From: Bdellovibrionales bacterium
GTDB lineage: Bacteria; Bdellovibrionota; Bdellovibrionia; Bdellovibrionales; UBA1609
DNA: 64,000 nucleotides
Assembly (NCBI GenBank): GCA_050246815.1
Contig: JBFWVI010000008.1
Location: 1,973-65,972, forward strand
Direction: 5' to 3'
How positions within the stretch are numbered: position 1 is the first letter of the stretch; each line of letters starts with the position of its first letter. The notes beneath the pieces were generated by a model. The model was not told where the DNA came from and did not search any database. It saw only the letters and a list, made by a program, of their open reading frames with translations. The position numbers and the translations under genes were made by a program. Below, one piece after another: positions 5,766 through 33,022 of this stretch.

Positions 5766-5993
5766 ATGCTGGTTCTGACAAGAAAACTAGGCGAAAGTAT
5801 CGCCATCGACGATCACATCAAAATTCGCGTGGTTCAAATCAAAGGTAAACAAGTCCGTTTGGGTATCGAAGCGCCAAAGGACACCAAAATTCATCGCGAA
5901 GAAGTTTACCAAGCCATTCAAAACCAGAACCAAGAATCTTCGACCACCGCTCCAGACAGTGCCCGTGCGGTTTCTAAGCTTTTAAAGCCCTAA
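5766..5993 (+). CDS. csrA: Carbon storage regulator CsrA
   Basis: [12 protein letters not shown]...VRLGIEAPK...IHREE signature. Confidence 0.97.
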
Positions 5994-6100: not shown

Positions 6101-6637
6101 ATGAAAGTCCAAACGTCCAGATTTGGGGTGGTCGAGATCGGCAACGATGACTTGATCGAGTTTCCGGAAGGGCTCCTGGGCTTCAATCATTTGCGCAAGT
6201 TTGTTTTGCTGGACGATCCCACCGACGACATTTTTGCTTGGTTGCAAAGCTGCGAAGAGGCATCCATCGCCTTTCCCGTGCTTGAGCCTGAACTTTTTGC
6301 CGGTCAATATCATGTGCAGCTGACTAAACATGATTTAGAGGCTTTGAAGTTGCCTTTGGGTGAAGGTTTTAGAACCTTTATGGTGATCACCATCCCGCAG
6401 GACCCGACCCAAATGACGGCCAATATGAAGGCTCCCTTGGTGATCAACGTCAACCGCCGCCTTGGTCGCCAGTGCGTGTTGCAAGACAATCAATTGGCTA
6501 TTCGTGAGCCGATTTTCGCTAAGCTGCAGCAGCGCGTGGTGCAAAATCCGCAAGTGCCGATCAAAAGCCAGGGCCGTGAGCCCAAAATGCCAATGCGCCA
6601 AGCTCCGGTTCGGGGGCCTGAATCTTCGGCTGAATAA
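6101..6637 (+). CDS. fliW: Flagellar assembly factor / CsrA antagonist FliW
   Basis: TSRFG, FPEGLLGF, WLQS and MTANMKAP motifs; start moved to ATG 6101. Confidence 0.95.
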   Translation: MKVQTSRFGVVEIGNDDLIEFPEGLLGFNHLRKFVLLDDPTDDIFAWLQSCEEASIAFPVLEPELFAGQYHVQLTKHDLEALKLPLGEGFRTFMVITIPQDPTQMTANMKAPLVINVNRRLGRQCVLQDNQLAIREPIFAKLQQRVVQNPQVPIKSQGREPKMPMRQAPVRGPESSAE

Positions 6638-23418: not shown

Positions 23419-23523
23419 GTTATAGGACTGCTGAAACGGATCTTAAGTCTTGTGTCTGTGGGCACCGCTTGTGGTGACCGGTCTGGGGAGGCCGGTGAAA
23501 CGCGCAAGCAGGAGGGTGCGTTT

Positions 23524-24351
23524 GTGTCATTTCGAATCAGTACCAACGTCGCGTCGTTAGCGGCGCAACGAAATCTGGGAAACTCCCAAAGAGCCACTGA
23601 AAAAGCGCTACTGGCCCTTTCATCAGGGTCCAGGATCAACCGCGCCTCTGACGATGCCGCCGGCTTTGCCATTGCCGAAAGCTTGCGTGGGCAATTGAGT
23701 GGCGTGAAGCAAGCTAAGAAAAATGCCGACACAGCGACATCCTTTATTCAAACCGCCGAGGGCGGACTTTCTGAGCAGAACAATATTTTAATCCGCTTGC
23801 GCGAGCTGGCAGTTTACTCGGCCAGCGACACTGTCGGCGATGAAGAGCGCGGCTATTTGAACATGGAATTCCAGCAGCTATCGGCGGAATTTGATCGCAT
23901 AGCGCGCTCAACGCGCTATGGGAATAAACAGCTGCTGACTGGTAACGGGGATGAACACACCTTTCAGATCGGCGCGTACCGAGGTGAAGAGAACGAAGTG
24001 AGTTTTAAACTCGACGCCAACACCACCGCGAGTGAGGTGGGTATTTCTGGTTTGTCGATCGACGATCAAGATAGTGCGACGGATGTTCTTGAAGACCTTG
24101 ATGAGGGCTTGCAAAAGGTGGCCTCGGCTCGGGCCTCGTTCGGCGCTATGCAGTCGCGCTTGCAACACGCGTCTGATCACTTGGCGGTGCAGATTGAAAA
24201 CGTCTCGGCCGCCCGATCGCAGATCGTGGACGCCGACATTGCCGAAGAAGCAGCTAATCTGGCGCAAAACCAGATCATTCAAGACGCCGGCATCGCTGTC
24301 TTGGCTCAGGCCAACGTGAACACCTCTCGCGTAGCGCGGCTGATTCAGTAA
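23524..24351 (+). CDS. fliC: Flagellin (fliC1, 275 aa)
   Basis: GTG start after AGGAGG; FRISTN, LSSGSRINRASDDAAG and GAMQSRL motifs. Confidence 0.95.
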   Translation: MSFRISTNVASLAAQRNLGNSQRATEKALLALSSGSRINRASDDAAGFAIAESLRGQLSGVKQAKKNADTATSFIQTAEGGLSEQNNILIRLRELAVYSASDTVGDEERGYLNMEFQQLSAEFDRIARSTRYGNKQLLTGNGDEHTFQIGAYRGEENEVSFKLDANTTASEVGISGLSIDDQDSATDVLEDLDEGLQKVASARASFGAMQSRLQHASDHLAVQIENVSAARSQIVDADIAEEAANLAQNQIIQDAGIAVLAQANVNTSRVARLIQ

Positions 24352-24395
24352 CTAGACCTTCGTCTTGGTTTTTGTTTTAAGTGATGGGCGGGCTT

Positions 24396-24424
24396 GGGCG
24401 GTTCTTTGTAAGAACCGCCTTTTT
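24396..24424 (+). terminator. Intrinsic terminator after fliC1
   Basis: GGGCGGTTCT/AGAACCGCCT stem followed by a T run. Confidence 0.75.
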
Positions 24425-24556
24425 AATTTTAAAGCCCACAAGTTCAACATCTCCGGATTGATAACGCGCCAAGTTATAAAATAAATTTTATTCAATAAAG
24501 CCCATCCCTTTCAAGCACAAGATGTGTCGCGTCATAAACTGGACTAGACCAAGGTC

Positions 24557-24590: not shown

Positions 24591-24818
24591 GAACACGTTG
24601 GAGCACCTCGGGACTCATCCGTTTCAGCAGTCACTGTAAATGGATTAGAACCGAACCAAGTATCGTGAGGAGGGGCAGTCACCCCCTCTCGCGAGAACCT
24701 CCAGCAAAACATAATTAACCAAGACTCGGATGTCGCGGATGTGCGTCTTATAGCCGGTTGGCTGTGGGTCGACGCATGTTTTGATCCTCACGGTCGGGGA
24801 AAGAACGTTGGAGGTTCT
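24591..24818 (+). promoter_or_regulatory. Long structured 5' leader of fliC2
   Basis: Two hairpins with CAGUCA loops, a 12-bp anti-SD helix (24694-24705/24807-24818) and GGA motifs. Confidence 0.7.
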
Positions 24819-25649
24819 ATGGGCTTAAGAATCAATACTAACGTTGCCTCAATCGGAGCGCAGCGGGTATTAACGAAGCAGCAACAACGCTTGGAGCATT
24901 CGCAACAAGCATTGGCTTCAGGAACACGTATCGTTAAAGCAGCCGATGATGCTGCCGGCTTGGCCATCTCAGAAAACATCAAGGGCCAAATGGTCGGTAT
25001 CAAAATGGCTCGTAACAACTCATACAACGCACAATCGTTGATTCAGGTCAGCGAGGGCGGATTGAACGAAATCAACAACATCTTGATTCGTTTGCGCGAA
25101 CTGGGTGTGCAAGCGGCCTCGGACACAGTCAGCGATGTTGAGCGTGAATTTTTGGATCAGGAAGCGCAGCAATTGCGTATGGAGTCGGATCGGATCGCGC
25201 GTTCGACACGTTTTGGTAACAAAACTTTGCTGGATGGTTCAGGCGAAGAGTTTGAATACCATGTCGGCCCATTTGCCGATGAAGATGAAAACGTCATTCG
25301 CTATCAAATCTCGGCTGATGCCACCAACAGCACCCTGGGCATCGATGGCGTCGGAGTGTCAGATAAAGACAGCGCTCGCGACACTTTAAGTTCGGTGGAC
25401 GAAGCTTTAGTGAAAATCGGTAAAATGCGCGCCGACTTCGGTGCCGTGCAAAGTCGATTGCAGACCACCACGAGCAATTTGGACATTCAATACGAGAACT
25501 TGTCCGCCGCAAAATCACGTATTTCGGATGCCGACGTGGCTTACGAGTCTTCAGAGATGGCTTCGTCGCAAATATTGCAAAGCGCTTCAGTGGCCGTGTT
25601 GGCGCAAGCCAATCAAAACGGCTCCTTCGCGCTGCGCTTGTTAAGCTAA
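24819..25649 (+). CDS. fliC: Flagellin (fliC2, 276 aa)
   Basis: MGLRINTNV, KAADDAAGLAI and GAVQSRL; ATG 24819 after GGAGG. Confidence 0.96.
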   Translation: MGLRINTNVASIGAQRVLTKQQQRLEHSQQALASGTRIVKAADDAAGLAISENIKGQMVGIKMARNNSYNAQSLIQVSEGGLNEINNILIRLRELGVQAASDTVSDVEREFLDQEAQQLRMESDRIARSTRFGNKTLLDGSGEEFEYHVGPFADEDENVIRYQISADATNSTLGIDGVGVSDKDSARDTLSSVDEALVKIGKMRADFGAVQSRLQTTTSNLDIQYENLSAAKSRISDADVAYESSEMASSQILQSASVAVLAQANQNGSFALRLLS

Positions 25650-25847
25650 ATTATTTCATCAGTCTTGTGAGGCTCGGCCGCACCTTGTGCGGCCGGGACT
25701 AAATCAGCTTTTTTGAGGACTCAAGATGCGGTCCTCTGTATCGCGATGCAAATGTTTTTTAAACGTTTTGAGTTTTAGACAGGTAGCCCACAGCATCCTG
25801 TCTTAAGCCCGCCCTGGGGTCGCCCCACGAACCCCAGGGTTTTTTTT
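25650..25847 (+). ncRNA. Structured ~200-nt 3' UTR of fliC2, candidate 3'UTR-derived sRNA
   Basis: Three hairpins before the terminator; one loop displays GCCCACAGC complementary to flagellin leaders. Confidence 0.45.
25811..25847 (+). terminator. Intrinsic terminator after fliC2 3' UTR
   Basis: GCCCTGGGGT/ACCCCAGGGT stem followed by a T run. Confidence 0.85.
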
Positions 25848-25887
25848 AAGCGGCGTCGACACTTCCTCAACCTCTCTTTTAAGACTT

Positions 25888-28413: not shown

Positions 28414-28594
28414 TTGATCGAATTCAGAACTTCCTGGCCGCAGGCCTCAGGTCTAGGGGCTGTGACCTCGACCTTTGGTCTTGGCGACCAAGGTCCTACC
28501 GCACCGACTCCATACTTATTATTATTCCCACGGCAAAATCCCAAACTAAGGTCCAGTTCTACACCGACCATGGTCCAGTTTGACTGGACTCGAC

Positions 28595-28621
28595 TTTAGT
28601 TCGCCCCGACCTGGCCGAAAG
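28595..28621 (+). promoter_or_regulatory. Sigma28 promoter of fliC3
   Basis: TTTAGTTC-N11-GCCGAAAG, near-identical to the fliC4 promoter. Confidence 0.75.
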
Positions 28622-28628
28622 GTTTGTT

Positions 28629-28846
28629 AGAAGCAAGAGCGGATCTTGAAAGTCCGCCAGGCGAGAGTTCATCACTTGAGTGACTGCTTGTGATGAAATC
28701 GCTACCAGCCTGGCATGACCCATCAAAATTTGCTCCAACGTGTTCAACCAAGCGCAAAGGATGCGCGCACCCGGGGTGCGGCTCTGTGGGTAGAGCCCCT
28801 TCGGGTAGCGAAACGGATTTTGAACAAACCCAAAGGAGGACCTTTT
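28629..28846 (+). promoter_or_regulatory. Long structured 5' leader of fliC3
   Basis: Nested hairpins, a GUGACUGC loop, an AAGGA hairpin (28752-28766) and a GUGGGU loop (28786-28791). Confidence 0.7.
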
Positions 28847-29680
28847 ATGGGTCTCAGGGTCACAACCAATATTCCATCGATTAGCGCGCAGCGCACGATG
28901 GCCAGTTCACAGCGCGAAATTCAAAAGAGTTTCTCGCAGCTTTCTTCCGGTTCGCGGATCACCAAGGCAGCTGATGATGCAGCCGGCTTGTCGATCAGCG
29001 AAACTTTAAAATCCACCGTTCGAGGTTACGTGCAAGCGCAACGTAACGCCAACGATGGGATCTCGATGGTGCAAGTCTCTGAAGGGGGCTTGGGCGAGAT
29101 CAGCAACATCTTGACCCGCATGCGCGAGTTGGGTGTGCAAGCCGCCTCGGACACGGTCGGCGATGTCGAACGTGGCTTTATCGACAAAGAGGTTCAACAG
29201 TTGAAAAACGAAATGGAGCGTATCGCGAAAACCACTCGTTGGGGTTCGCAGAATCTGCTCGATGGCAGCGGTGAAGAATACGGCTTCCAGGTCGACATCA
29301 ACAATGACGACTTCAATGACCGTATTAGCTTCGACGCCAGCCAACAAGACGCCACAATCGGCACCTTGGGTGTTGATGGCTTTGATTTTTCGACCAAAGA
29401 TGGTGCACGTGATGCCCTTGAAATGTTAGAAACATCGCAACGCCAAGTGAACGGTTATCGTGCCAACTTAGGCGCGATTCAAAACCGCCTGATCTCGACC
29501 ACCGAAAACTTAGGTGTCGCGATCGAAAACTTCTCGGCAGCCAATTCGCGAGTTCGCGATGCGGACGTCGCGCAGTCTTCAGCTGAACTGGCTCGCAACA
29601 ACATCTTGCTGCAAGCCAACGTGGGTGTCTTGGCGCAAGCCAATCAGCAACCCGGTTTAGCAATGCGTTTGGTCTCTTAA
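28847..29680 (+). CDS. fliC: Flagellin (fliC3, 277 aa)
   Basis: MGLRVTTN start after AAAGGAGG; LSSGSRITKAADDAAG and LGAIQNRL. Confidence 0.97.
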   Translation: MGLRVTTNIPSISAQRTMASSQREIQKSFSQLSSGSRITKAADDAAGLSISETLKSTVRGYVQAQRNANDGISMVQVSEGGLGEISNILTRMRELGVQAASDTVGDVERGFIDKEVQQLKNEMERIAKTTRWGSQNLLDGSGEEYGFQVDINNDDFNDRISFDASQQDATIGTLGVDGFDFSTKDGARDALEMLETSQRQVNGYRANLGAIQNRLISTTENLGVAIENFSAANSRVRDADVAQSSAELARNNILLQANVGVLAQANQQPGLAMRLVS

Positions 29681-29703
29681 TTTATAATTTGATTTGTAAA
29701 GTG

Positions 29704-29769
29704 TTGGAGGGGTCTCCTTTGCCTCTCCGGTACCTACCTACCCAAGGAGGTTTTCCTCCTTGGGGTACT
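29704..29769 (+). ncRNA. Two-hairpin 3' UTR RNA motif, copy 1
   Basis: Hairpin with CUCCUUU loop, then a bulged hairpin (UACCUAC bulge, UUUU loop); covaries with 31000-31066. Confidence 0.7.
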
Positions 29770-29812
29770 ACATAGACTAGCCCGGACCGTCCTGAAACCA
29801 GACTGAACCGCA

Positions 29813-29842
29813 GTCGGTGAGATCAAGGTCGGTGAGATCAAG
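29813..29842. repeat. Perfect 15-bp tandem duplication
   Basis: GTCGGTGAGATCAAG x2, with degenerate similar words downstream. Confidence 0.9.
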
Positions 29843-29947
29843 GGCTGGCCCCCATCGAACGACCAGGTATGATACGTCGAAGGTCGTGAAATCCAAGATC
29901 AACGTCCAGAAATAGCACGCCTTCAGTCCAGAAACGCTGGACGCGAC

Positions 29948-29974
29948 TTCAGTTGGCCCCGACCTCGCCGAATA
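29948..29974 (+). promoter_or_regulatory. Sigma28 promoter of fliC4
   Basis: TTCAGTTG-N11-GCCGAATA. Confidence 0.75.
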
Positions 29975-30143
29975 ACTAGGCGTGAGTTGCATGGAACCCA
30001 GACGGTCAAGTCCAGGTCCAGGTGATCACAGGGTAACAAATATTAATAACCAGCATTACGGATAATGCCTTCTTCCGCTGGCCCAGTAGGTAGGGACATG
30101 AGGATGGAATACGGACGTTTTCGCCAACACAAGGAGAAGTACC

Positions 30144-30977
30144 ATGGGATTACGAGTTACAACGAACGTCGCGTCGATCAACGCACAGAAGTCGATGGCT
30201 TCCAGTCAGCGTGAGATCCAACGCAGTTTCGCACAATTGTCATCAGGTTCACGCATCACCAAAGCCGCCGACGACGCAGCGGGGCTTTCGATCAGCGAAA
30301 CGCTGAAGTCCACCATCCGCGGTTACACGCAGGCGCAACGTAACGCCAACGACGGTATCTCGATGGTGCAAGTCGCAGAGGGTGGCCTGGGCGAGATCAG
30401 CAATATCTTGACCCGCCTGCGGGAGTTGGGCGTGCAAGCGGCCTCAGACACGGTGGGTGATGTCGAGCGCGGCTTCATCGACAAAGAGGTTCAACAATTG
30501 AAAAATGAAATGGATCGTATCGCGCAATCGACACGTTTCGGCAAATCGAAACTCTTAAACGGCGATGGCGAAGAATACGCTTTCCAAGTCGATATCAATA
30601 ACAACGACTTTGAGGATCGAATTAACTTTAATGCCGCAGAATTGAAAGCGACCTCAGACGCTTTGGGTGTGGATGGATTTGATTTCTCGGATAAGCTTAA
30701 TGCTCGCGAAGGTTTGGAAGTGTTAGAAGACGCTCAGCGCATGGTGAACGGAATGCGTGCGAACCTTGGCGCAATTCAAAACCGCCTGGTGTCGACCACA
30801 GAAAACTTAGGCGTGGCAATCGAGAACTTCTCGGCTGCGAACGCTCGTGTTCGCGACACAGACGTGGCGCAATCTTCGGCAGAACTGGCCCGCAACAACA
30901 TCTTGTTGCAAGCCAACGTGGGTGTTTTGGCTCAAGCCAATGCCATGCCGCAAGCCGCTTTGCGCCTGATTGGTTAA
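30144..30977 (+). CDS. fliC: Flagellin (fliC4, 277 aa)
   Basis: Close paralog of fliC3; AAGGAG RBS. Confidence 0.97.
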   Translation: MGLRVTTNVASINAQKSMASSQREIQRSFAQLSSGSRITKAADDAAGLSISETLKSTIRGYTQAQRNANDGISMVQVAEGGLGEISNILTRLRELGVQAASDTVGDVERGFIDKEVQQLKNEMDRIAQSTRFGKSKLLNGDGEEYAFQVDINNNDFEDRINFNAAELKATSDALGVDGFDFSDKLNAREGLEVLEDAQRMVNGMRANLGAIQNRLVSTTENLGVAIENFSAANARVRDTDVAQSSAELARNNILLQANVGVLAQANAMPQAALRLIG

Positions 30978-30999
30978 TATTAAAATTGAATTTGAGAAT

Positions 31000-31066
31000 T
31001 GAGGCGGTGGCTTCTCCGCTGCTTCAGTACTTACCTACCCGGGCGGGTTTTCTCGCCCGGGGTGCT
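31000..31066 (+). ncRNA. Two-hairpin 3' UTR RNA motif, copy 2
   Basis: 11-bp hairpin with CUUCU loop, then a bulged hairpin (UACCUAC bulge, UUUU loop). Confidence 0.7.
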
Positions 31067-31152: not shown

Positions 31153-31524
31153 ATGAATGTAAAAAGTTTGACTCCCAATTTAAGCGCGCTAGACCCTCGA
31201 CTTCGCACCGAGGCCAAAGACAATGTGCGCCTGCAAAACAGCGGCGACCGCGATGCGGATGGCCGTCGGCAGCAGAATGAGCCTGAACACAAGCGCCACT
31301 TGAACGAATCCGAGTTTGAAACAGCCTTGGAAACCTTAAAGAAAAACGCCGCCGTTACCGCTCACAACCTACAGATTCGAGTTGAACAACATGAAGATCA
31401 CCGGGTCATCTTCATCGAGGATCGGGCCGGGCAAGTGATTCGCCGTCTGTCAGAGGCCGACTTGTGGCTGGTCACTCGAGAAAATGATCGTCCCACGGGA
31501 AAAATTTTAGATAAAGCCGGCTAG
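31153..31524 (+). CDS. FlaG-like protein
   Basis: Located between flagellin and fliD; VIFIEDRAGQVIRRL...GKILDK resembles the FlaG C-terminus; GCCGAATC at 31136. Confidence 0.65.
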   Translation: MNVKSLTPNLSALDPRLRTEAKDNVRLQNSGDRDADGRRQQNEPEHKRHLNESEFETALETLKKNAAVTAHNLQIRVEQHEDHRVIFIEDRAGQVIRRLSEADLWLVTRENDRPTGKILDKAG

Positions 31525-31651: not shown

Positions 31652-33022
31652 TTGCCAATTACGTTTGGTGGAATTAACACAGGCTTACCCCCGAACATCG
31701 TCGACCAGTTGGTCGAAGCGGAACGCATTCCTATTCGCAATATGGAAGCGCAAAAGACCAAACAAGAAACCAAACTCAAATTGGTTCAGGATCTTGAAAG
31801 TAAATTGGCGGCGCTCAATGGTTCTTTGGCAGGTTTAGCGTCGGCGAAGGGTTTCAAAGATATTAAGCTAAACTCGGGCAATCCAAATGTGATCACCGGG
31901 GCGGTTGATCCCGACGCCAGCGTCACGGGCAGTTGGAATGTTGAGGTGGTCGAACTGGCGCAAAAGGCCGCGGCGATCACAAATGGTTTTCCCGACAAAG
32001 ATAAAACTCAAATCGGCACGGGCTACTTTCGCTTTCATACAGCGGACGGCAAAAAAGATGTTTACGTGAACGGTAAAAACAACACTCTTGAAAAGGCGGC
32101 CGAAACCATCAACGCCTCAGGCATCGGCGTGCGAGCAACCGTCTTGAATGATCGTAAAGACCCCGACAATCCCTACCGACTGATGATTTCTGGCGAAGCC
32201 GTTGGTGGCGATAACCGCATTGATTATCCGACGCTTTATTTCTTGGACGGCGATCAGGATCTTTACTTCGATGAAGAGCGCGAGGCAAAGAACGGTCGTG
32301 TGAAGGTGGATGGCTTTGAGTTTGAAGTCAGCGACAACAAAGTCAACGATGCCATCCCAGGTGTGACGCTAGAGTTGCGCCAAGCCGCACCTGGGCAGCA
32401 AGTGAATATCTCGGTCAAAGAAGATATGGAAATCGTAACCGGCAAAGTGAAGACATTTGTAGACGGTTTGAACGCTGTGCTGGGCTTTATTCAGCAACAA
32501 AACAGAATGGACAAAGACACCGACACCTCACAGACCTTGGGCGGCGACAGCATGCTGCGTTCGATCCAAAATCGCTTAGAGAGGTTGGTGCAGGATCCGC
32601 AGTACGGAATTGACGGACCGATCAAGCGCTTGAATCAAATCGGCATCACCTTTAACCGTGGCGGCACCGTGGATTACAAGGAAGAGGCCTTCAACCAAGT
32701 TTTGGCGCGGGACCCCGTTGCGGTACAAAAGTTTTTGGCCGGAGATGGTTTTAACACGGGCTTTATTAGTGCCGTGAAGCGCGAAGTGCAGACCGTGTTG
32801 AACGGACAGTTCGGGCAGGTGGCGATACGAAAAAAGGGCATGCAGGATCGCATCAACCAAATGGACGATCGGATTGCAATGAAAGAACGTCAGTTGCAAA
32901 CCAAAGAAGAAAGCTTACGGCGCAAGTTTAGCCGTTTGGAAGAAACCATGTCGCGACTTAAGTCCCAGGGTGGGGCTTTGGGCGGAATGGGCGGCGGCGG
33001 CGGTGGCCTGGCGCAAGGATGA
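31652..33022 (+). CDS. fliD: Filament cap protein
   Basis: TTG start after GGAGG; FGGINTGL...QLVEAERIP, IPGVTLEL and LRRKFSRLE motifs. Confidence 0.95.
   Translation: MPITFGGINTGLPPNIVDQLVEAERIPIRNMEAQKTKQETKLKLVQDLESKLAALNGSLAGLASAKGFKDIKLNSGNPNVITGAVDPDASVTGSWNVEVVELAQKAAAITNGFPDKDKTQIGTGYFRFHTADGKKDVYVNGKNNTLEKAAETINASGIGVRATVLNDRKDPDNPYRLMISGEAVGGDNRIDYPTLYFLDGDQDLYFDEEREAKNGRVKVDGFEFEVSDNKVNDAIPGVTLELRQAAPGQQVNISVKEDMEIVTGKVKTFVDGLNAVLGFIQQQNRMDKDTDTSQTLGGDSMLRSIQNRLERLVQDPQYGIDGPIKRLNQIGITFNRGGTVDYKEEAFNQVLARDPVAVQKFLAGDGFNTGFISAVKREVQTVLNGQFGQVAIRKKGMQDRINQMDDRIAMKERQLQTKEESLRRKFSRLEETMSRLKSQGGALGGMGGGGGGLAQG

What the first reader, a model, noticed from the sequence alone, without database searches (positions are those of the whole stretch)
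29704..31066. Covarying 3' UTR motif after fliC3 and fliC4 that reads its own ribosome-binding site and leader loop
Seen: after an AU-rich spacer both genes have hairpin 1 then hairpin 2 (5-bp stem, UACCUAC bulge, 9-bp stem, UUUU loop). The upper stems differ yet pair (CCAAGGAGG/CCTCCTTGG versus CCGGGCGGG/CTCGCCCGG), and there is no U-tail. Hairpin 1 tracks each gene's own SD: GGTCTCCTTTG (29711-29721) pairs CAAAGGAGGACC (28831-28842), and GGTGGCTTCTCC (31006-31017) pairs GGAGAAGTACC (30133-30143), each with one bulge. The UACCUAC bulge (29735-29741; 31032-31038) pairs leader loops GTGGGTA (28786-28792, one G-U) and GTAGGTA (30086-30092). The two contacts are nested. Inference: a closed-loop mRNA that silences itself once fully transcribed, or a processed feedback sRNA.
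Basis: partly seen in the sequence, partly recalled or inferred. Interest (0 to 1): 0.9.

Follow-up and report, generated by a model that had tools for sequence, protein, structure and literature searches.

The report
Flagellin mRNA tail pairs own leader
A conserved two-hairpin RNA element just after certain flagellin genes of Bdellovibrio-like predatory bacteria exposes two short stretches that match, and in one case co-vary with, the ribosome-binding site and a hairpin loop in the same gene's leader, which points to a messenger RNA that folds head-to-tail to control its own translation.

Summary
After window flagellin genes 28847-29680 and 30144-30977 lie hairpin H1 (CU-rich loop) and hairpin H2 (lower stem, UACCUAC bulge, covarying upper stem). 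A covariance model of H2 finds it in 46 of 109 genomes of the family and 74 of 151 of the order (Bdellovibrionales by named relatives). It finds none in 127 genomes of other families of the phylum. All 51 of 51 hits checked lie after a flagellin gene. Rfam has no match. H2 is 99.1% paired, with compensatory changes at 13 of 15 pairs. The H1 loop co-varies with the bases flanking the cognate SD core: position +1 pairs in 42 of 67 genes against 23.5 in shuffles (0/5000). Cognate pairs beat non-cognate ones (0/5000). The bulge core CCUAC faces GUAGG, usually in a leader hairpin loop near -61, in 71 of 78 motif genes; this contact rests on conservation, with weak covariation. Best reading: a bipartite 5'-3' UTR interaction that occludes the SD. 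Whether it acts in cis or as a processed RNA, and what it does to expression, is untested; no RNA data were available.

The parts
28594..28620 (+). FliA (sigma-28)-like promoter of window fliC3: CTTTAG-N15-CCGAAA. The inferred transcription start is near 28628, giving a leader of about 219 nt.
   Evidence: Read. It resembles the TTAAG-N16-CCGATA consensus of B. bacteriovorus attack-phase promoters (passages of PMC3627812). The same box precedes fliC4 and the strain s4 homologue. This is inferred, not mapped.
28780..28797 (+). fliC3 leader hairpin GGCUCUG-UGGG-UAGAGCC. It carries GUGGGUA (28786-28792), the partner of the 3' bulge (8 bp with one G-U).
   Evidence: Fold; duplex (-15.7 kcal/mol). 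The homologous hairpin presents GUAGG fully in its loop in 55 of 72 distinct leaders, against a shuffled-flank mean of 15.6 and maximum of 25.
28831..28842 (+). fliC3 SD region CAAAGGAGGACC (ATG at 28847), the partner of the H1 loop. CAAAGGAG pairs with CUCCUUUG (8 Watson-Crick bp).
   Evidence: covariation.
29681..29705 (+). A+U-rich spacer between the fliC3 stop codon and H1.
   Evidence: Across 78 genes the median spacer is 26 nt with 74% A+U.
29706..29728 (+). fliC3 H1: purine-rich 5' arm, loop CUCCUUU (29714-29720), pyrimidine-rich 3' arm.
   Evidence: Fold. A CU-rich 4-mer sits in the terminal loop in 49 of 78 homologues, against 4.3 in shuffles.
29729..29769 (+). fliC3 H2: lower stem GGUACC/GGUACU, bulge UACCUAC (29735-29741), 9-bp upper stem, UUUU loop.
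   Evidence: Model R1 hit at 73 bits (G000:C8:31699-31744). Pair counts.
29947..29973 (+). FliA-like promoter of window fliC4: CTTCAG-N15-CCGAAT. The inferred start is near 29981, giving a leader of about 163 nt.
   Evidence: inferred as for fliC3.
30082..30095 (+). fliC4 leader hairpin CCC-AGUAGGUA-GGG carrying GUAGGUA (30086-30092).
   Evidence: fold. duplex with its own bulge segment: -16.7 kcal/mol, 9 bp with one G-U.
30133..30143 (+). fliC4 SD region GGAGAAGUACC (ATG at 30144). GGAGAAG pairs with CUUCUCC of H1 (7 Watson-Crick bp).
31001..31025 (+). fliC4 H1 with loop CUUCU(CC).
   Evidence: Fold.
31026..31066 (+). fliC4 H2: lower stem AGUACU/GGUGCU, bulge UACCUAC (31032-31038), upper stem CCGGGCGGG/CUCGCCCGG.
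   Evidence: Model R1 hit at 66.6 bits. Flagged as marginally terminator-like.

Best explanation
The element is a conserved, structured 3' UTR module of a subset of flagellin mRNAs in Bdellovibrionales. It displays two single-stranded 'reading heads'.

1. The H1 loop is an anti-Shine-Dalgarno sequence tuned to the SD core plus the adjoining bases of its own gene.
2. The H2 bulge (U)ACCUAC is complementary to a GUAGG(U) loop on a small hairpin about 60 nt upstream of the start codon.

The two contacts are colinear in antiparallel orientation. One mRNA could therefore fold head-to-tail: a loop-bulge kiss would provide nucleation and specificity, and an anti-SD/SD duplex would cover the ribosome-binding site down to a few bases from the AUG.

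The most likely consequence is reduced or gated translation initiation of that flagellin paralogue, possibly with stabilisation of the untranslated mRNA. This would be layered on a CsrA-FliW-type control of the same leader.

Shown: the structure, its conservation, its exclusive link to flagellin genes, and SD-flank covariation. Inferred: that pairing happens in cells, that it acts in cis, and that it represses.
For: - **Structure.** H2 is 99.1% paired over 51 sequences. 13 of 15 pairs have changes on both sides, 0 of 500 shuffles reach this, and slid controls are 43-56% paired.
- **Link to flagellin.** All 51 of 51 hits lie 37-268 nt after a flagellin gene on the same strand.
- **Distribution.** Family 46/109 genomes, order 74/151, other families of the phylum 0/127.
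- **H1-SD, cognate test.** Cognate longest Watson-Crick match is 6.55 nt against 5.52 non-cognate. Duplex energy is -15.16 against -13.12 kcal/mol. Both give 0/5000 permutations, n=78 non-redundant genes. The control (H1 against other leader parts) shows no effect: 3170/5000 and 1115/5000.
- **H1-SD, positional covariation around GGAG/CUCC.** Position +1: 42/67 Watson-Crick against 23.5 in shuffles (0/5000; A-U 18, G-C 22, U-A 2). Position +2: 36/67 against 20.2 (0/5000). Position +3: 32/67 (39/5000). Position -1: 35/67 against 26.0 (9/5000).
- **Examples.** GGAGAAGUC/GACUUCUCC, GGAGAAUA/UAUUCUCC, AAGGAGUCU/AGACUCCUU, AGGAGGCUC/GAGCCUCCU, GGAGGUCC/GGACCUCC, AUUGGAG/CUCCAAU, GGAGAACACC/GGUGUUCUCC.
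- **Tandem paralogues.** The cognate combination is better in 12 of 14 loci.
- **Bulge-leader contact.** GUAGG is in 71 of 78 leaders of motif genes, median position -61, against 15 of 60 flagellin genes without the motif. The genome background is 0.0275 per 85 nt.
- **Leader hairpin.** GUAGG sits in a hairpin loop in 55 of 72 windows, with widely varying stems.
- **Extended matches and compensation.** Matches of 8-11 bp occur in some lineages (ACUUUACCUAC/GUAGGUAAAGU). One compensated change is GCCUAC/GUAGGC.
- **Context.** csrA and fliW are in the same contig. B. bacteriovorus CsrA represses B. subtilis hag (passages of PMC13443453).
- **Possible protein-level hint.** In B. bacteriovorus the motif gene ends NAMPNSALRLIG, like Bd0606/fliC2 (passages of bioRxiv 10.64898/2026.06.08.730854). 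FliC2 is reported as a small component of the filament (abstract of PMC2791853).
Against: - No transcript data: no RNA run holds the locus.
- Any CU-rich loop will match strong SDs. 7 of 67 genes match only through the 4-nt core and 14 through 5 nt.
- The bulge-leader contact shows little covariation. Flank positions give 127/2000 to 1813/2000. Longest-match cognate advantage is 832/5000. Its energy signal (2/5000) is not far from an unrelated control (bulge against SD region, 28/5000), which shows that relatedness inflates such tests.
- Uncompensated mismatches exist: GUAGGA loops facing ACCUAC in L045-581, L050-624 and L058-568, and GCCUAC facing GUAGGA in L071 and L075.
- A 6-nt loop fully paired to a bulge is sterically demanding.
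- RNAcofold does not recover the contacts, though it cannot model kissing.
- Built-in repression of an abundant structural protein is not obviously useful.
- My motif scanner is regex- and hairpin-based and may mislabel some genes.
Confidence: 0.6

Rival explanations
1. The H1+H2 module is cut out of the mRNA, for example in the A+U-rich spacer. It would then act in trans as a 3'-UTR-derived small RNA on flagellin leaders (its own and perhaps paralogues), using the same two reading heads.
For: - The A+U-rich spacer (median 26 nt, 74% A+U) is the kind of site where endonucleases cut.
- The module is compact (about 65-70 nt) and very stable.
- GUAGG leader loops also occur on flagellin genes that lack the 3' motif (15 of 60; window fliC2 has GUGGGU). 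More leaders than tails therefore carry a target.
- Swapped combinations are nearly as good for the bulge contact.
- Karunker et al. list two attack-phase small RNAs at 561.9-563.1 kb of HD100, near the fliC1/fliC2 pair (Table 2 of PMC3627812). I could not map them.
Against: - H1 is tuned to its own gene's SD flank even between tandem paralogues (12 of 14). That fits 1:1 cis action at least as well.
- There is no U-tail of the kind usual for Hfq-type small RNAs in 71 of 83 cases (3 or fewer T in 8 nt).
- If APsRNA3 marks the FliA start of the fliC2-type gene, and the leader is about 163 nt as in strain s4, APsRNA4 would begin about 130 nt past the stop codon, beyond the motif.
Confidence: 0.2
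2. The module is only a 3'-end structure: a terminator or exonuclease block, perhaps bound by a protein. Its complementarity to the leader would have no function.
For: - It has a strong GC hairpin at the mRNA's 3' end.
- In the second gene of tandem pairs (my 'type 2'), H2 is often followed by U-rich tails such as GUGUUUU or AGUUUUU. fliC4's H2 is flagged as terminator-like.
- The invariant GGUACC...ACCUACCC...GGUACU sequence could be a protein site.
Against: - A terminator or stabiliser does not explain why H1 loop bases co-vary with the SD flank of the same gene.
- It does not explain why the conserved bulge is the exact complement of a conserved leader loop.
- The organism uses ordinary U-tail terminators elsewhere: fliC1 has one at 24389-24425.
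- In B. bacteriovorus strain s4 a canonical terminator follows H2, so H2 is not needed for termination there.
Confidence: 0.13
3. On read-through transcripts, the module of the first gene acts on the leader of the next flagellin gene as an intercistronic regulator.
For: - fliC3's H2 has no U-tail, and no terminator was found before fliC4.
- fliC3's bulge region matches fliC4's leader over 9 nt (CCUACCUAC/GUAGGUAGG, read).
- Many loci have a second flagellin gene downstream.
Against: - H1 matches its own SD better than the downstream gene's SD in 12 of 14 tandem loci.
- Many motif genes are not followed by another flagellin gene within the locus. Window fliC4 is followed by a short unidentified ORF (31153-31524, no Pfam hit) and then fliD. 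L032, L034, L036 and L038 are further examples.
- fliC4 has its own FliA-like promoter.
Confidence: 0.05

Closest known systems
icaR mRNA 5'-3' UTR interaction in Staphylococcus aureus (PMC3868564; title and abstract seen in search listing)
   Same: A 3' UTR anti-SD sequence pairs with the SD of the same mRNA and controls its translation.
   Different: As I recall it, icaR forms one long duplex cut by RNase III. It has no hairpin-presented loops and no second contact, and it is species-restricted. Here there are two short contacts displayed on a covarying two-hairpin scaffold, conserved across an order and tied to flagellin genes.
Bacillus subtilis hbs mRNA 5'/3'-UTR interaction (PMC5737220; abstract seen in search listing)
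   Same: An abundant mRNA is closed head-to-tail by UTR pairing, coupling stability with translation.
   Different: In hbs the pairing protects a 5' UTR cleavage site rather than covering the SD. There is no bulge or loop kissing motif. Homology was not tested and is not expected.
OxyS-fhlA two-site kissing complex (recalled; no paper fetched)
   Same: Bipartite loop-mediated RNA-RNA recognition, with one contact over the ribosome-binding site and a second distant one giving specificity.
   Different: OxyS is a trans-acting stress small RNA in enterobacteria. Here both partners lie on one mRNA, or on its own processed tail.
CsrA-FliW control of flagellin leaders (B. subtilis hag, C. jejuni flaA; PMC6529632 and PMC4894983, abstracts seen)
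   Same: The targets are the same: the flagellin 5' leader, with one site in a hairpin loop and one at the SD. csrA and fliW are present here, and the leaders carry GGA hairpin loops.
   Different: There the regulator is a protein that recognises GGA. Here an RNA tail reads the SD and a GUAGGU loop, which is not a GGA site.
3'-UTR-derived small RNAs (review PMC7821165, listing only)
   Same: A regulatory RNA is encoded in the 3' UTR of an mRNA.
   Different: Known cases act on other mRNAs and usually end in a U-tailed terminator. Processing has not been shown here.

Membership tests
Any Rfam family (release 15) | Score at or above the family's gathering threshold | tested here: not met
   There were 0 matches over the whole window at gathering thresholds. 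The best sub-threshold match on the motif was RAGATH-23 at 16.9 bits against a threshold of 92.6, E = 7.2.
Intrinsic (Rho-independent) terminator | GC-rich hairpin immediately followed by a U-tract | tested here: not met
   fliC3's H2 is not flagged and fliC4's is only marginal. Across homologues, 71 of 83 have 3 or fewer T in the 8 nt after H2. Some second-gene variants do have U tails.
5'-3' UTR anti-SD interaction (icaR-like mechanism) | 3' UTR sequence complementary to the SD of the same mRNA | tested here: met
   There are 8 and 7 Watson-Crick bp in the two window genes. Cognate pairs beat non-cognate ones at 0/5000.
5'-3' UTR anti-SD interaction (icaR-like mechanism) | Covariation between the two partners across homologues | tested here: met
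   Positions +1, +2, +3 and -1 around the GGAG/CUCC cores give 0/5000, 0/5000, 39/5000 and 9/5000.
5'-3' UTR anti-SD interaction (icaR-like mechanism) | Pairing lowers translation or changes stability in vivo | not testable with these tools
   No RNA run is listed. Reporters and compensatory mutants are needed.
3'-UTR-derived small RNA | A discrete short RNA species with a defined 5' end inside the 3' UTR | not testable with these tools
   No RNA data are available. The published small RNAs APsRNA3 and APsRNA4 lie in the neighbourhood in HD100 but could not be mapped. Supplements are closed.
CsrA binding site | GGA core, typically in a hairpin loop | tested here: not met
   The H1 loop (CUCCUUU), the H2 bulge (UACCUAC) and the leader loop (GUAGGU) all lack GGA. 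Separate leader hairpins do carry CAAGGAUG-like loops, for example window 28752-28766.

The most novel reading that the evidence does not exclude
Bdellovibrionales flagellin mRNAs may carry a dedicated RNA device that circularises the message. A loop-bulge kiss plus a gene-specific anti-SD clamp would let each paralogue's translation be gated individually after transcription ends. This gating might be released by CsrA-FliW state, a helicase or a nuclease during flagellum growth, and could help set the order or amount of the multiple flagellins along the tapered filament. If so, it would be the first phylogenetically conserved, covariation-supported closed-loop mRNA element in bacteria.
Probability: 0.3. 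Interest if true: 0.9.

Novelty: new variant of a known kind. Interest (0 to 1): 0.8.

Why it matters
Base pairing between the two ends of a bacterial mRNA is known from a handful of single-species cases. As far as my searches reach, none is supported by order-wide covariation.

- Searches made: and Rfam. None of them turned up this element. Papers outside the held library, and supplements, were not seen.
- What this offers: a compact, conserved, sequence-defined module with built-in predictions, namely specific compensatory pairs.
- Where it can be tested: it is present in cultivable B. bacteriovorus (strains s4 and YOA24), apparently on the fliC2/Bd0606 orthologue.
- What it would add: an RNA layer to flagellin homeostasis alongside CsrA-FliW, and a natural model for how two short kissing contacts achieve paralogue-specific control.

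Tried and rejected
- **Rfam.** No family matched at gathering thresholds or at E up to 10.
- **RNA evidence.** The look-up of sequencing runs listed 4 DNA metagenome runs and no RNA holder. This says nothing about expression.
- **RNAcofold of leader plus 3' UTR.** It gave small gains (-3.6 and -4.1 kcal/mol) through other pairings. For fliC3 it paired the SD with the 3' arm of H2 (CCUCCUUGG), which is peculiar to this genus. The program cannot represent loop-loop or loop-bulge kissing, so I draw nothing from it.
- **Flank covariation of the bulge-leader contact.** It was not significant, and my automatic choice of site picked wrong AGAGG sites in a few leaders. 12 of 55 genes without an exact CCUAC core were left out of that count.
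- **MAFFT alignment of the whole module.** It misaligned H1 and two H2 copies. I therefore modelled H2 alone and analysed H1 and the leaders by script.
- **Reverse-strand reading.** The reverse complement of the H1 loop is AAAGGAG, which could be an SD for a minus-strand ORF. I rejected this because no ATG follows it within a useful distance, and it would not explain covariation with the flagellin SD flank.
- **CsrA site.** Rejected for the motif itself because it lacks GGA.
- **DNA inverted repeat for inversion or gene conversion.** Rejected as unlikely.
- **Published HD100 small RNAs (APsRNA3 561,854-561,981; APsRNA4 562,984-563,081).** I could not place them on sequence.
- **Terminator search downstream of H2.** My crude script found 6 of 83. 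It is too strict to rely on.
- **Rows dropped.**
  - One search kept only flagellin matches covering query residues 3 or lower to 265 or higher, with at least 150 nt upstream and 120 nt downstream (154 genes). It removed 11 identical copies, leaving 143.
  - collapsed 83 motif genes to 78.
  - One search left out 11 of 78 genes lacking GGAG or CUCC.
Full report
**What is in the window.** Pfam finds four flagellin genes: about 23526-24351, about 24820-25649, 28847-29680 and 30144-30977. They are followed by a short ORF with no Pfam hit (31153-31524) and then fliD at 31652-33022. They are 81.5% identical tandem paralogues. The whole assembly has seven flagellin genes, and only these two carry the motif.

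After an A+U-rich spacer, each 3' UTR has two hairpins.
- H1 has 13 bp in the minimum-energy fold, with loops CUCCUUU and CUUCU.
- H2 has a 5-6-bp lower stem, the 5' bulge UACCUAC, a 9-bp upper stem and a UUUU loop.

The folds beat all 200 shuffles, with z of -3.77 and -5.01. fliC3's H2 has no U-tail. fliC4's is marginal. The organism does use ordinary terminators: fliC1 has one at 24389-24425.

**Is it a real, conserved RNA?** A BLASTN of the fliC3 tail against 41 related genomes (G000 included) found clear matches in two genomes of the genus and one of another genus, plus a weaker one in another family. All lie after flagellin genes.

I built a covariance model of H2 alone, because MAFFT could not align H1. 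It found:
- 46 of 109 genomes of the family and 19 of 35 genera, at one or two copies per genome.
- With a second model built from 51 hits: 74 of 151 genomes sampled from the order, in 10 of 13 families.
- In a sample of the phylum, hits only in families of the same order, and 0 of 127 genomes elsewhere.

These are samples, so 'not found in those searched' is the correct wording.

Named relatives are Bdellovibrionales, Pseudobdellovibrionaceae and Bdellovibrio. The motif is present in B. bacteriovorus strains s4 and YOA24 and in Bdellovibrio sp. HCB209 and HCB2-146. All 51 of 51 hits at E of 1e-4 or better lie 37-268 nt (median 53) after the end of a flagellin-coding match on the same strand.

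On the 51-sequence alignment, 99.1% of cells pair and 13 of 15 pairs show changes on both sides. No shuffle of 500 reaches any measure, and slid controls pair at 43-56%. That alignment was fitted to the model, which favours the structure somewhat. Rfam has no match.

**Contact 1: H1 loop with the cognate SD.** The loci were chosen by H2 hits or by flagellin similarity, not by H1 or the leader, so the following tests are independent of the selection.

H1 always folds as a hairpin with a purine-rich 5' arm (82%) and a pyrimidine-rich 3' arm (82%). A CU-rich 4-mer sits in its terminal loop in 49 of 78 cases, against 4.3 in shuffles.

A CU-rich loop would match any strong SD, so the test is whether it tracks what varies around the core. 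It does. Examples:
- GGAGAAG(UC) with (GA)CUUCUCC in this genus
- GGAGAAC with GUUCUCC in many second genes
- GGAGAAUA with UAUUCUCC
- AAGGAGUCU with AGACUCCUU
- AGGAGGCUC with GAGCCUCCU
- GGAGGUCC with GGACCUCC
- AAGGAGGUA with UACCUCCUU
- AUUGGAG with CUCCAAU
- CUGGAGG with CCUCCAG
- AUGGAGGU with ACCUCCGU in B. bacteriovorus

I anchored on GGAG and CUCC in 67 non-redundant genes (11 of 78 lacked one core). The results:

| Position relative to GGAG | Watson-Crick pairs | Shuffle mean | Shuffles at least as good |
|---|---|---|---|
| +1 | 42 of 67 (three pair types) | 23.5 | 0/5000 |
| +2 | 36 of 67 | 20.2 | 0/5000 |
| +3 | 32 of 67 | 23.6 | 39/5000 |
| -1 | 35 of 67 | 26.0 | 9/5000 |

Cognate H1/SD combinations beat permuted ones on longest match (6.55 against 5.52 nt) and on duplex energy (-15.16 against -13.12 kcal/mol), both at 0/5000. 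The control, H1 against other leader segments, shows nothing: 3170/5000 and 1115/5000. Within 14 tandem pairs the cognate arrangement is better in 12, tied in one and worse in one (L055).

Relatedness inflates such permutation tests, and the tandem 'type 1/type 2' split (my labels) is old, so these are not 14 independent events. Even so, the number of distinct compensated states is large (one search list). On the other side, 7 of 67 genes match only the 4-nt core and 14 match only 5 nt.

**Contact 2: H2 bulge with a leader loop.** The bulge core CCUAC faces GUAGG in 71 of 78 leaders of motif genes. The median position is -61, with a range of -88 to -37. Among flagellin genes without the motif by my scanner, 15 of 60 have GUAGG. 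The genome background is 0.0275 per 85 nt.

In 55 of 72 distinct leaders, GUAGG lies wholly in a hairpin loop closed by flanks whose sequences vary widely, for example CUUGA/UCAAG, CCUAGGA/UCCUAGG, GCCCU/AGGGC and GGUUCG/CGAACU. Shuffled flanks give 15.6 on average and 25 at most. So the leader hairpin is itself a covarying structure that presents the complement of the conserved bulge.

Some lineages extend the match to 8-11 bp, for example ACUUUACCUAC/GUAGGUAAAGU in L072, and also L073, L033, L057 and L060. One lineage shows a compensated change, GCCUAC/GUAGGC in L055.

The statistics are weak, however.
- Flank positions are not significant.
- The cognate advantage in longest match is 832/5000.
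- The energy signal (2/5000) is close to that of an unrelated control, at 28/5000.
- Uncompensated mismatches exist: GUAGGA loops in L045, L050 and L058, and GCCUAC facing GUAGGA in L071 and L075.

This contact therefore rests on conserved complementarity of two displayed single strands and on their co-occurrence, not on covariation.

**Geometry and context.** In the leader the order is GUAGG loop, then SD. In the tail it is anti-SD loop, then bulge. The spacer after the stop codon (median 26 nt) would keep a terminating ribosome off H1 (inference).

The leaders start at FliA-like promoters (window 28594-28620 and 29947-29973). I inferred these from the published consensus TTAAG-N16-CCGATA. 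The leaders also carry hairpins with CAAGGAUG-like loops and a further GGAU before the SD. csrA and fliW lie about 22 kb upstream on the same contig, at window 5766-5921 and 6155-6514. B. bacteriovorus CsrA represses B. subtilis hag in a heterologous assay (passages of PMC13443453). The same leader is therefore probably under CsrA-FliW control (inference), and the tail touches the SD that CsrA would also bind.

**Mechanism.** The best-supported reading is a bipartite 5'-3' UTR interaction. The anti-SD/SD duplex covers the ribosome-binding site to within a few bases of the AUG, and the loop-bulge kiss adds affinity and specificity. Covering the SD can hardly do anything but compete with 30S binding, so I expect repression or gating, possibly with protection of the idle mRNA.

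In B. bacteriovorus the motif gene ends NAMPNSALRLIG. That is the C-terminus given for Bd0606 (passages of bioRxiv 10.64898/2026.06.08.730854), which is fliC2 (passages of PMC2791853). The abstract of PMC2791853 describes FliC2 as a small component of the filament. The Fig. 6 legend of the same paper reports fewer RT-PCR cycles for fliC1 and fliC2 than for fliC3 to fliC6. This is compatible with translational restraint but proves nothing.

The data here cannot separate action within one molecule from action of a processed tail. Paralogue-specific tuning and 1:1 stoichiometry favour cis. The A+U spacer, and the wider spread of GUAGG leaders, leave room for trans.

H2 probably doubles as the terminator in many second genes, where it has U-rich tails. 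In strain s4 a separate canonical terminator follows it.

**Comparison with known systems.**
- The mechanism resembles the icaR 5'-3' UTR anti-SD pairing (PMC3868564) and the hbs closed loop (PMC5737220). I saw both only as listing abstracts.
- In architecture it resembles the two-site kissing of OxyS-fhlA (recalled, not fetched).
- It is not a member of any Rfam family.
- It is not a CsrA site, because it lacks GGA.
- It is not a canonical terminator.

My literature searches found no description of it. Supplements, and papers outside the held library, were not seen.

**Verdict.** The functional outcome is untested. I rate it a new variant of a known kind, of high interest, because it is conserved, carries specific compensatory-mutation predictions, and is present in a cultivable model organism.

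Noticed in passing
window 28733-28766 (and homologous leaders in L031-L060): Leaders of the first-gene type share an almost invariant box, CUCCAACGUGUUCAACC, about 100-115 nt before the ATG. It is followed by a hairpin with a CsrA-like loop (GCGCA-AAGGA-UGCGC at 28752-28766). A further GGAU lies before the SD. Second-gene leaders have GCUCAUGGAUUAUGAGC-type hairpins instead. These are probably CsrA sites. The box itself is unexplained.
   Followed up: partly
window 5766-5921 and 6155-6514: csrA (PF02599, 92.7 bits) and fliW (PF02623, 125.9 bits) lie next to each other on the same contig as the flagellin cluster.
   Followed up: partly
window 29770-29782; L037, L040, L043, L050 after H2: A short UAGAC-containing stretch (for example CAUAGACUAG, UAUAGACAGG, UUCUAGACGG) recurs just after H2 in first-gene tails of several genera. 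It may be a further conserved element or a processing site.
   Followed up: no
window 29815-29845: The fliC3-fliC4 spacer holds a 15-nt unit repeated in tandem (CGGTGAGATCAAGGT then CGGTGAGATCAAGGG).
   Followed up: no
window 29744-29761: In this genus the H2 upper stem is itself SD/anti-SD-like (CCAAGGAGG/CCUCCUUGG). RNAcofold pairs its 3' arm with the fliC3 SD. This is not conserved in other genera, where the stem differs.
   Followed up: partly
window 24754-24770 (fliC2 leader) and about 23455-23470 (fliC1 leader): The two other flagellin genes of the cluster lack the 3' motif but have GUGGGU (fliC2) or GUGGGC (fliC1) in their leaders at a similar distance from the start. More leaders than tails therefore carry a possible target. 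The three flagellin genes on other contigs have none.
   Followed up: partly
window 25665-25690 and 25813-25848: The second flagellin gene has a different 3' hairpin without a U-tail (GGCUCGGCCGCACCUUGUGCGGCCGGG). A canonical terminator appears only about 170 nt further on, so it also has a long structured 3' UTR.
   Followed up: no
B. bacteriovorus HD100 coordinates 561,854-563,081 (paper PMC3627812, Table 2): Two attack-phase small RNAs are reported close to where relatives have the fliC1/fliC2 pair: APsRNA3 (with a FliA promoter) and APsRNA4 (98 nt). They may be leader or tail fragments of these flagellin mRNAs. I could not map them.
   Followed up: partly
L096 2441-2462 (B. bacteriovorus strain s4): A canonical hairpin-plus-U terminator directly follows H2 in strain s4. 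In Bdellovibrio proper the module is therefore internal to the 3' UTR rather than its end.
   Followed up: no
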